64,000 nt of DNA from Escherichia coli (lineage in GTDB: Bacteria; Pseudomonadota; Gammaproteobacteria; Enterobacterales; Enterobacteriaceae). A program made the position numbers and the translations under genes. The notes beneath the pieces are model-generated. The model saw only the letters and a list, made by a program, of their open reading frames with translations, did not search any database and was not told the DNA's origin. The stretch lies in NCBI RefSeq assembly GCF_041886205.1, contig NZ_CP169029.1. One strand, 5' to 3'. Positions 22,108-25,226 of this stretch are shown piece by piece. Each line of letters opens with the position of its first letter. Positions within the stretch are counted from its first letter, which is position 1.

Positions 22108-24086
<1,979 letters not shown>

Positions 24087-24088
<2 letters not shown>

Positions 24089-25226
24089 GTCAGAGCCCCT
24101 CGATCTCAATCAGTTAGCGCAAAAAATTAAACAGTGGGGGCTGGAACTGGGCTTTCAGCAGGTAGGTATTACCGATACCGATCTCAGCGAGTCCGAGCCC
24201 AAACTGCAAGCATGGCTGGACAAACAATACCACGGCGAAATGGACTGGATGGCACGTCACGGTATGCTGCGCGCTCGCCCTCATGAGTTATTGCCCGGTA
24301 CGCTGCGCGTGATCAGCGTGCGGATGAATTACCTTCCTGCTAACGCCGCATTTGCCAGCACGCTGAAAAACCCCAAACTCGGCTATGTTAGCCGTTATGC
24401 GCTGGGCCGTGACTATCACAAACTTCTGCGCAACCGACTCAAAAAGCTGGGCGAGATGATTCAGCAACATTGTGTTTCGCTGAATTTTAGACCGTTTGTC
24501 GATTCTGCGCCTATTCTCGAGTGCCCGTTAGCTGAAAAAGCTGGGCTCGGCTGGACAGGTAAGCACTCACTTATCCTCAATCGCGAGGCCGGTTCGTTCT
24601 TCTTTTTAGGCGAATTGCTGGTCGATATTCCGCTGCCCGTGGATCAACCAGTCGAGGAAGGATGCGGTAAATGCGTGGCCTGTATGACTATTTGCCCGAC
24701 CGGTGCCATCGTCGAGCCATATACCGTCGATGCTCGCCGCTGTATCTCTTATCTCACCATCGAACTTGAAGGGGCGATCCCGGAAGAGTTGCGACCGTTA
24801 ATGGGAAACCGTATTTACGGTTGCGATGACTGCCAGCTTATCTGCCCGTGGAATCGCTATTCACAACTCACCACAGAAGAGGATTTCAGCCCGCGTAAGC
24901 CGCTACACGCACCGGAACTCATTGAGTTATTCGCCTGGAGCGAAGAGAAGTTTTTAAAAGTCACGGAAGGATCGGCGATTCGTCGTATTGGTCACCTGCG
25001 TTGGCTGCGTAATATCGCCGTAGCATTAGGCAATGCCCCTTGGGATGAAACGATTTTGACAGCGCTGGAAAGTCGTAAAGGTGAGCACCCACTTCTCGAT
25101 GAGCACATAGCGTGGGCGATTGCGCAGCAAATAGAGAGACGAAATGCGTGCATAGTCGAAGTGCAATTGCCGAAAAAACAGCGTCTGGTTCGGGTGATTG
25201 AAAAAGGGTTACCGCGTGACGCCTGA
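24087..25226 (+). CDS. queG: epoxyqueuosine reductase QueG
   Basis: Track ORF 415 aa trimmed to [10 protein letters not shown] start (379 aa); 4Fe-4S Cys clusters CGKCVACMTICP and CDDCQLICP. Confidence 0.9.

What the first reader, a model, noticed from the sequence alone, without database searches (positions are those of the whole stretch)
24086..24089. Divergent nnr and queG start codons overlap on opposite strands
Seen in sequence: with the starts chosen to match the recognised protein N-termini, the queG ATG begins at 24087 (plus strand) and the nnr ATG begins at 24088 (minus strand), so the two initiation codons share two base pairs (plus strand reads c-a-t-g). Inference: their promoters must lie inside each other's coding sequence, implying transcriptional interference or coupled regulation. 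The naive ORF track hides this by extending both ORFs.
Basis: partly seen in the sequence, partly recalled or inferred. Interest (0 to 1): 0.2.

Follow-up and report, generated by a model that had tools for sequence, protein, structure and literature searches.

The report
Head-to-head overlapping nnr/queG start codons
Two E. coli housekeeping genes on opposite strands (nnr and queG) do share two bases of their start codons, so each gene's promoter sits inside the other gene; this rare arrangement is real and conserved, but it is already in the reference annotation and in published catalogues of overlapping transcripts.

Summary
The window is E. coli chromosome. CATG at 24086-24089 holds the queG ATG (24087, +) and the nnr ATG (24088, -). 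RefSeq and K-12 MG1655 (b4166/b4167) annotate the same 2-bp overlap.

Comparison of 80 gammaproteobacterial loci supports both starts:
- The same CATG junction is in frame for both genes in 29 of 30 Enterobacterales species, and also in two Aeromonadales-like loci.
- The alternative nnr start, Met6, is not conserved.

Each gene's signals lie in the other's codons:
- A conserved extended -10 for queG, TGGTATACT (24047-24055), forms nnr codons Ser12-Ile13-Pro14.
- The nnr Shine-Dalgarno GAGGGG is the reverse complement of QueG Pro4-Leu5.
- A candidate nnr -10, TCTAAAAT (24491-24484), uses the rare AGA codon of QueG Arg135. It lies in the only invariant nucleotide run of 11 nt or more in queG across Enterobacteriaceae.

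Published data already show 5'-overlapping transcripts here. There is an RNase III-dependent dsRNA cluster (Huang 2020, also seen by Lybecker and by Conway). ExcludonFinder 2025 lists queG-nnr as a divergent excludon.

No direct start-site data could be retrieved, and any regulatory effect is untested. Verdict: real, rare, already known, low interest.

The parts
24086..24089 (.). CATG tetranucleotide holding both start codons. The shared bases are 24087-24088.
   Evidence: same in RefSeq and K-12 annotation; conserved across Enterobacterales
24087..25226 (+). queG CDS (epoxyqueuosine reductase, 379 aa)
   Evidence: Pfam QueG_DUF1730 + Fer4_16; RefSeq annotation
22541..24088 (-). nnr CDS (bifunctional NAD(P)HX epimerase/dehydratase, 515 aa). 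[quoted passage not shown]
   Evidence: Pfam YjeF_N + Carb_kinase; operon context
24047..24055 (+). Inferred queG promoter: extended -10 TGGTATACT. Its reverse complement AGT ATA CCA encodes Nnr Ser12-Ile13-Pro14.
   Evidence: Only extended -10 or 5/6 hexamer within about 780 nt upstream of queG apart from one far hit. TGNTANNNT is present upstream of queG in 64 of 78 loci against 8.6 expected. One of only two top conserved runs in nnr. Retained upstream of queG where nnr has moved away.
24061..24086 (+). Predicted queG 5' UTR (TSS about 24061-24063, inferred), antisense to nnr codons 1-9. The segment 24076-24088 is nearly invariant.
   Evidence: Spacing from the -10 (inference). The published dsRNA cluster ends at about 24068. 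Conserved run ATGACGGACCATA.
24096..24101 (-). nnr Shine-Dalgarno GAGGGG, 7 nt before ATG 24088. It is the reverse complement of QueG Pro4-Leu5 codons CCC CTC.
   Evidence: conserved run AGCCCCTCGAT 24094-24104
24071..24073 (-). Alternative nnr start (Met6, ATG). Not conserved outside Enterobacteriaceae.
24481..24493 (-). Candidate distal nnr promoter -10 region GGTCTAAAATTCA (TAAAAT 24489-24484, C at -13; predicted TSS about 24477). It is built on QueG codons Asn133-Phe134-Arg135, with the rare AGA codon for Arg135.
   Evidence: Only 5/6 -10 hexamer on the minus strand in the 1.2 kb upstream of nnr. Only invariant run of 11 nt or more in queG among 19 Enterobacteriaceae sequences. AGA in 18 of 18 Enterobacteriaceae, CGN in other families. 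The surrounding 51 nt are identical in 5417 of 5425 E. coli genomes.
24068..24423 (.). Region corresponding to published dsRNA cluster S-361 (U00096.2 4,391,754-4,392,109), where the two mRNAs pair and RNase III cuts.
   Evidence: The coordinate conversion is my own. It uses the length difference U00096.3 - U00096.2 = 1977, in which the U00096.2 length comes from memory.
25209..25262 (-). yjeV small ORF (17 aa), on the same strand as nnr, overlapping the queG 3' end. Reported as part of a 'noncontiguous operon' yjeV-queG-nnr.

Best explanation
[quoted passage not shown] There is no intergenic DNA, so each gene's expression signals are written into the other's N-terminal codons. (1) queG is most likely transcribed from an extended -10 sigma-70 promoter, TGGTATACT, at 24047-24055. 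This gives a 5' UTR of about 25 nt that is antisense to nnr codons 1-9. (2) nnr is translated from Met1 using the SD GAGGGG, which is encoded by QueG Pro4-Leu5. It is most likely transcribed from at least one promoter about 390 nt inside queG. The candidate is TCTAAAAT at 24491-24484, which resembles a sigma-S/sigma-70 -10 with C at -13. (3) The genes are divergent, but the promoters face each other about 430 bp apart. The two mRNAs therefore share a complementary 5' segment of about 400 nt that covers both ribosome-binding sites. That segment forms dsRNA which RNase III cleaves. Status of each step: the sequence geometry and conservation are shown here; the overlapping transcripts and dsRNA are shown by others; the exact promoter positions and TSSs are inferred; and any mutual repression (excludon-type behaviour) is inferred only.
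For: Geometry: identical to the RefSeq and K-12 annotation. Starts: both are in frame at CATG in 29 of 30 Enterobacterales loci and in L065 and L074. Upstream stops, or the absence of start-like codons, force these starts in many species. Met6 becomes V, L, I, E, K or Q elsewhere. Embedded signals: synonymous-codon identity is 0.65-0.82 in nnr codons 1-20 against 0.45 gene-wide, and 0.75 in queG codons 1-10 against 0.48. An unbiased scan for conserved nucleotide runs returns only the shared-start segment and TGTGGTATACT in nnr. In queG it returns the nnr SD and GGTCTAAAATTCAGC, plus two unexplained runs. TGNTANNNT lies upstream of queG in 64 of 78 loci against 8.6 expected. Natural experiment: in Pectobacterium and Brenneria the two genes are separated. 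There queG keeps TGGTAAAAT, and Nnr keeps the Leu-Pro residues but with codons that no longer form a -10. The rare AGA codon at QueG Arg135 is invariant in 18 of 18 Enterobacteriaceae and is CGN outside that family. Literature: dsRNA cluster S-361 for yjeS/yjeF with a 5' overlap, also seen in Lybecker's and Conway's data. queG-nnr is a divergent excludon in at least 50% of 58 RNA-seq samples. The yjeF-yjeE-amiB-mutL operon is preferentially transcribed by E-sigma-S in vitro. yjeF heads the most complex E. coli operon.
Against: I could retrieve no direct TSS, 5'-RACE, Ribo-RET or N-terminal peptide evidence for either gene. queG has only a weak SD. E. coli nnr has a second in-frame ATG (Met6) with a partial SD. 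In one MAG (L020) only the Met6 frame is open. 5' ends of genes often show raised synonymous constraint for reasons unrelated to a partner gene. The candidate nnr -10 has no -35 element. It is confined to Enterobacteriaceae, while the CATG overlap is much wider. Its conservation could instead reflect an RNA-level feature of the queG mRNA, such as an RNase E site or a programmed rare codon. The dsRNA cluster ends 54 nt short of the predicted nnr TSS. ExcludonFinder's 'noncontiguous operon' call implies some nnr-strand transcription starting further upstream, at yjeV. No experiment shows that either gene's expression depends on the other.
Confidence: 0.7

Rival explanations
1. The anatomy is real but functionally neutral. 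The overlap is a frozen product of genome compaction or start-codon drift. The antisense pairing and RNase III cleavage are by-products with no meaningful effect on Nnr, the superoperon or QueG levels.
For: Both are low-expression housekeeping genes, and no phenotype or reciprocal expression has been reported. The superoperon has about 8-10 further internal promoters, so downstream genes do not depend on the nnr promoter. Two Pectobacteriaceae lineages separated the genes without losing either. Pro-Leu codons read backwards give SD-like NAGNGG almost automatically.
Against: The exact junction has persisted across the whole order Enterobacterales and in Aeromonadales-like genomes. Synonymous sites that carry the partner's signals are under visible constraint. 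The dsRNA cluster is among the 20 most abundant coding-gene clusters in stationary phase. However, conservation of the signals only shows that each gene needs its own promoter and RBS. It does not show that the interplay is selected.
Confidence: 0.4
2. In E. coli nnr actually initiates at Met6 (ATG 24073-24071). The start codons would then lie 13 bp apart and would not overlap. Met1 would be an annotation convention.
For: There is an in-frame ATG at codon 6 with a partial SD (GGA, 7 nt upstream). Start-like codons (ATG, GTG or TTG) occur at this position in most Enterobacteriaceae. In L020 only this frame is open. Residues 1-39 lie outside the Pfam YjeF_N domain.
Against: Met1 has the stronger SD (GAGGGG, 7-nt spacer) and is the only start conserved in all families. 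Position 6 is E, K, Q, R or C in Erwiniaceae, Yersiniaceae, Budviciaceae, Hafniaceae and Acerihabitans, where no other start precedes the conserved S-L-P-H motif. MTDH is conserved at the amino-acid level. Even if this reading were true, the promoters would still be nested.
Confidence: 0.1
3. The invariant 13-nt run at 24481-24493 is not an nnr promoter. It is instead a feature of the queG mRNA or of its translation: an A/U-rich RNase E site, or a selected rare-codon pause at AGA.
For: The run is AU-rich (GAAUUUUAGA) and contains the rarest E. coli Arg codon. No -35 is present. The motif is restricted to one family although nnr needs a promoter everywhere.
Against: It is the only strong -10 match on the nnr strand in the 1.2 kb upstream of nnr. 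It lies just beyond the end of the dsRNA cluster, which marks where nnr-strand RNA begins. The C at -13 fits the reported sigma-S preference of this operon.
Confidence: 0.25

Closest known systems
Divergent excludons (Listeria mogR/fli locus; concept reviewed in the ExcludonFinder paper, PMC12288877)
   Same: Neighbouring genes lie on opposite strands and their transcripts overlap at the 5' ends. This gives antisense pairing, RNase III substrates and potential transcriptional interference. queG-nnr is itself listed among the 16 E. coli divergent excludons.
   Different: Classical excludons have an intergenic region and one long UTR that silences a functionally opposed neighbour. Here the coding sequences themselves overlap, both RBSs lie in the duplex, no opposing function is evident, and mutually exclusive expression has not been shown.
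Other E. coli divergent pairs that form 5' dsRNA (rsd-nudC, asd-yhgN, rhlB-trxA; Huang et al. 2020, PMC7373196)
   Same: They belong to the same class of p19-captured, RNase III-generated dsRNA at 5'-overlapping divergent mRNAs. yjeS/yjeF is cluster S-361 in the same table.
   Different: As far as I know (not checked here), those pairs keep an intergenic spacer. queG-nnr has none. Huvet and Stumpf counted only 2 divergent pairs among 663 overlapping pairs in E. coli.
Face-to-face (convergent) promoter interference, for example coliphage 186 pR/pL (from my own knowledge of Callen, Shearwin and Egan)
   Same: Two promoters fire towards each other, so polymerases collide or occlude the opposing promoter. 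The inferred P_queG (24050) and P_nnr (24487) face each other about 430 bp apart.
   Different: Interference strength has been measured in the phage system. Here both promoters are inferred and probably weak, and nothing has been measured.
Noncontiguous operons (S. aureus menE-menC-ytkD type; described in PMC12288877)
   Same: A gene on the opposite strand sits between co-transcribed genes. ExcludonFinder lists yjeV-queG-nnr as one of three such operons in E. coli.
   Different: The dsRNA cluster covers only the first 336 nt or so of queG. This argues that most nnr-strand RNA starts inside queG rather than at yjeV.

Membership tests
Divergent (head-to-head) overlapping gene pair | Two protein-coding genes on opposite strands whose 5' coding ends share at least 1 nt | tested here: met
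   annotation
Divergent (head-to-head) overlapping gene pair | Both annotated start codons are the ones actually used | tested here: inconclusive
   Comparative evidence is strong, but no initiation-site or N-terminal data could be retrieved.
Excludon (divergent) | Transcripts of the two neighbours overlap in antisense | not testable with these tools
   Reported by others. My promoter inference is consistent with this.
Excludon (divergent) | dsRNA is formed and processed by RNase III | not testable with these tools
   Literature only: p19-captured cluster S-361 and Lybecker dsRNA = Y.
Excludon (divergent) | Expression of one partner lowers the other (mutually exclusive expression) | not tested
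   No data found. Needs promoter-specific synonymous mutants or an rnc mutant.
Extended -10 sigma-70 promoter (queG) | TGn immediately upstream of a TATAAT-like hexamer with A2 and T6. A -35 element is dispensable. | tested here: met
   TGGTATACT at 24047-24055, 5/6 match; conserved in position in 64 of 78 loci.
Extended -10 sigma-70 promoter (queG) | A primary transcript 5' end 6-8 nt downstream | not testable with these tools
   Indirect only: the dsRNA cluster ends at about 24068, and the predicted TSS is 24061-24063.
Sigma-S/sigma-70 -10 promoter (nnr, candidate) | -10 hexamer close to TATAAT with C at -13 | tested here: met
   TCTAAAAT at 24491-24484. Invariant in Enterobacteriaceae through the rare AGA codon.
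Sigma-S/sigma-70 -10 promoter (nnr, candidate) | Mapped TSS and sigma-factor dependence | not testable with these tools
   Only an operon-level E-sigma-S preference in vitro.
Nnr (bifunctional NAD(P)HX epimerase/dehydratase) | YjeF_N domain followed by Carb_kinase domain | tested here: met
   PF03853 at residues 40-199 and PF01256 at residues 258-496; T. maritima Tm0922 homologue.
QueG (epoxyqueuosine reductase) | DUF1730 domain plus double 4Fe-4S domain | tested here: met
   PF08331 at residues 62-140 and PF13484 at residues 193-256.

The most novel reading that the evidence does not exclude
The queG-nnr junction could be an ancient, hard-wired antisense switch. Because both ribosome-binding sites and both promoters are encoded in the partner's codons, transcription of the nnr-tsaE-...-hfq superoperon leader (possibly sigma-S driven) would obligatorily silence queG through collision and RNase III cleavage, and vice versa. 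This would couple queuosine-tRNA maturation inversely to entry into stationary phase. Selection for that coupling would explain why the exact CATG overlap has survived across Enterobacterales and Aeromonadales-like genomes.
Probability: 0.15. Interest if true: 0.45.

Novelty: already known. Interest (0 to 1): 0.2.

Why it matters
Divergent coding overlaps are very rare in bacteria. One survey found 2 among 663 overlapping pairs in E. coli. This pair is therefore a clean, well-conserved example for studying how promoter, RBS and protein constraints share the same nucleotides. The pair heads the superoperon that contains hfq, miaA and mutL, so any antisense control here could touch global regulators. 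However, the overlap is in the reference annotation, and the overlapping transcripts and dsRNA are already catalogued. What this analysis adds is detail: codon-level placement of the signals, depth of conservation, and a testable candidate nnr promoter. It is not a new phenomenon.

Tried and rejected
1. The built-in promoter/terminator scan found nothing in 23500-24700. It requires both hexamers, so it misses extended -10 promoters. I replaced it with my own -10 scan.

2. Rfam found only the three tRNA-Gly genes in 20000-28000, so no known RNA element lies at the junction.

3. I looked for direct TSS or initiation data in supplements, all without a hit:
- Cappable-seq (PMC4782308)
- Adams 2021
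- Conway 2014
- ExcludonFinder
- Kim 2012
- SMRT-Cappable-seq
- TRAINSPOTTER N-terminomics
- Ribo-RET preprint
The files held as text are cut or absent. Thomason 2015 is not held.

4. I considered a proximal nnr promoter at about 24130 (TTTAAT within queG codons 12-15) and rejected it. Its third positions vary freely among species.

5. Two weaker extended -10-like sites on the nnr strand, 24420-24412 and 24232-24224, are not specially conserved. They are kept only as minor possibilities.

6. An upstream queG start (GTG 24042 or 23979) is rejected. Several species have a stop 2-7 codons upstream of the ATG, or no start-like codon there.

7. A leaderless queG is unlikely, because the conserved -10 lies 32 nt upstream of the ATG.

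Full report
**What the window is.** The region is E. coli chromosome. A 1,201-nt query around the finding matches 5,425 of 5,426 complete E. coli genomes at 95-100% identity. The local gene order is amiB - tsaE - nnr on the minus strand, then queG on the plus strand. After that come yjeV, three tRNA-Gly genes and orn on the minus strand.

**Check of the observation.** The plus strand reads CATG at 24086-24089.
- ATG at 24087 opens a 379-aa Que[10 protein letters not shown]....
- The reverse-strand ATG at 24088 opens a 515-aa Nnr, [15 protein letters not shown]....
- RefSeq annotation of three unrelated E. coli genomes has exactly this 2-bp overlap.
- So does K-12 MG1655: queG 4392928..4394067 on the minus strand, nnr 4394066..4395613 on the plus strand.
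- Pfam confirms both identities.

**Are these the real starts?** I fetched 80 queG loci from one genome per species and located nnr in them.
- In 30 Enterobacterales loci the two genes abut. These range from Escherichia, Citrobacter and Enterobacter to Pantoea, Serratia, Yersinia, Rahnella, Budvicia, Acerihabitans and Edwardsiella.
- In those loci QueG residue 1 maps to locus position 2501 and Nnr residue 1 to 2502. This is the same CATG junction.
- In 29 of the 30 loci Met1 is in frame with the rest of Nnr. The exception, L020, is a metagenome-assembled genome (MAG) with a one-base frame change between Met1 and Met6.
- The E. coli alternative start Met6 is replaced by V, L, I, E, K, Q, R or C in other species.
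- In Erwiniaceae, Yersiniaceae, Budviciaceae and Hafniaceae, no other start-like codon precedes the conserved S-[IL]-P-H motif.
- For queG, several species have an in-frame stop 2-7 codons upstream of the ATG, or no start-like codon there.
- Two Aeromonadales-like loci, L065 and L074, have the same CATG geometry. Many Vibrionales and Alteromonadales loci have the two genes 0-30 bp apart.
- Within E. coli, the 71 nt around the junction are identical in 5,248 of 5,425 genomes.

I could not retrieve any experimental start-site data. The starts therefore rest on comparative evidence.

**Where the expression signals are.** With no intergenic DNA, the signals must lie in the partner's codons, and the sequence shows where.

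(a) *queG promoter.*
- TGGTATACT at 24047-24055 is an extended -10 (TGn + TATACT, 5/6 match).
- It is the only such site in the roughly 780 nt upstream of queG, apart from one hexamer 780 nt away.
- Its reverse complement AGT ATA CCA encodes Nnr Ser12-Ile13-Pro14. In other families the motif is TGGTAAACT, encoding Ser-Leu-Pro.
- A TGNTANNNT motif lies at a similar distance upstream of queG in 64 of 78 loci, against 8.6 expected from shuffles. This includes loci with no nnr nearby.
- The predicted TSS is 24061-24063 and the predicted 5' UTR is about 25 nt. Both are inferences.

(b) *nnr ribosome-binding site.*
- The nnr SD GAGGGG lies 7 nt before Met1.
- It is the reverse complement of QueG Pro4-Leu5 (CCC CTC, 24096-24101).
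- An SD-like sequence is retained in nearly every Enterobacterales locus.

(c) *Unbiased conservation scan.* Among 18-19 Enterobacteriaceae sequences, only about 5% of third codon positions are invariant. The most conserved nucleotide runs are:
- In nnr: the shared-start segment ATGACGGACCATA (24088-24076) and TGTGGTATACT (24045-24055).
- In queG: the nnr SD (24094-24104), GGTCTAAAATTCAGC (24493-24479), and two unexplained runs.

Synonymous-codon identity is 0.65-0.82 over nnr codons 1-20 against 0.45 gene-wide. It is 0.75 over queG codons 1-10 against 0.48 gene-wide.

(d) *Candidate nnr promoter.*
- The run at 24481-24493 is the only invariant run of 11 nt or more in queG.
- On the nnr strand it reads TCTAAAAT. 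That is a 5/6 -10 hexamer with C at -13, and the only such hexamer in the 1.2 kb upstream of nnr.
- It depends on the rare AGA codon for QueG Arg135. AGA is present in 18 of 18 Enterobacteriaceae, while other families use CGN.
- I propose it as the Enterobacteriaceae nnr promoter, with a TSS near 24477 and a leader of about 390 nt.
- This fits the report that yjeF-yjeE-amiB-mutL is preferentially transcribed by E-sigma-S in vitro.
- It remains a candidate only.

**A natural experiment.** In Pectobacterium (L033) an ORF of about 340 aa has been inserted between the genes. In Brenneria (L030) they lie 147 bp apart. In both cases:
- queG keeps a now non-coding TGGTAAAAT at the usual distance.
- Nnr keeps the Leu-Pro residues, but with codons (AGC TTA CCT; TTG CCG) that no longer form a -10.

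This is what one expects if the E. coli nonamer serves two functions at once.

**What others have measured.**
- Huang et al. 2020 captured RNase III-produced dsRNA with p19. [quoted passage not shown]
- The same cluster is marked as also present in Lybecker's dsRNA immunoprecipitation and in Conway's overlapping operons.
- Converted to window coordinates, the cluster spans about 24068-24423. The offset of 1977 is the length difference between the two K-12 genome versions, and the U00096.2 length is from memory.
- So the cluster runs from 19 nt upstream of the queG ATG to 336 nt inside queG.
- That fits a queG TSS just left of 24068 and an nnr-strand 5' end at or beyond 24423.
- ExcludonFinder (2025) lists queG-nnr among 16 divergent excludons found in at least 50% of 58 MG1655 RNA-seq samples. 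It also lists yjeV-queG-nnr among three noncontiguous operons.
- Conway et al. describe the operon headed by yjeF as the most complex in E. coli.
- Huvet and Stumpf counted only 2 divergent pairs among 663 overlapping gene pairs in E. coli.

**Mechanism.**
- The genes are divergent, but the inferred promoters face each other about 430 bp apart.
- Polymerases from each promoter must cross the other.
- The two mRNAs share a complementary 5' segment of about 400 nt that contains both ribosome-binding sites.
- The documented outcome is dsRNA and RNase III cleavage.
- Mutual down-regulation by collision, promoter occlusion, RBS masking or cleavage is plausible, but it is untested.
- A neutral reading is that the architecture is a frozen product of compaction. 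Each gene's own signals would then be conserved, but the cross-talk would not be selected. My data do not exclude this reading.

**Verdict.** The feature is a rare class, but it is already known, both in the annotation and in four transcriptomic studies. The additions here are the codon-level map of embedded signals, the depth of conservation, and a testable candidate nnr promoter. Interest is low.

Noticed in passing
window 24522-24524: QueG residue 146 is Cys (TGC) in this window. It is Arg (CGN) in K-12 and in all 30 Enterobacterales species aligned. It is the only QueG difference from K-12, and the best E. coli genome match over 1,201 nt is 99.9%, not 100%. It may be a private mutation or a sequencing error at an invariant residue.
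   Followed up: partly
window 24558-24571 and 25080-25096: Two of the most conserved nucleotide runs in queG among Enterobacteriaceae are GGTAAGCACTCACT and GGTGAGCACCCACTTCT. They resemble each other (consensus GGTRAGCACYCACT) and include conserved third codon positions. I found no promoter, SD or known RNA match for them.
   Followed up: no
window 25209-25262 (minus strand): The 17-aa small ORF yjeV (MRFYFYSQAVDESGVTR) overlaps the 3' end of queG by 18 bp in convergent orientation. It is annotated in RefSeq and K-12 and is listed as a convergent excludon with queG.
   Followed up: partly
window 22541-22569: nnr and tsaE overlap co-directionally by 29 nt: the tsaE start is at 22569 and the nnr stop codon ends at 22541. 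nnr therefore overlaps a neighbour at both ends.
   Followed up: no
window 25499-25794 (minus strand): There are three tandem, identically scoring tRNA-Gly genes (glyV, glyX, glyY), on the same strand as yjeV and nnr. Read-through from them could feed antisense transcription across queG.
   Followed up: no
L033 about 1370-2450 (Pectobacterium zantedeschiae): An ORF of about 340 aa of unknown function is inserted between nnr and queG, on the nnr strand, and breaks the overlap. In Brenneria (L030) a 147-bp spacer does the same.
   Followed up: partly
L020 2486-2502 (soil MAG, Enterobacteriaceae-like): nnr Met1 is out of frame with the rest of the gene, so only the Met6-equivalent ATG opens the full ORF. 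This is either an assembly error or a lineage that uses the downstream start.
   Followed up: no
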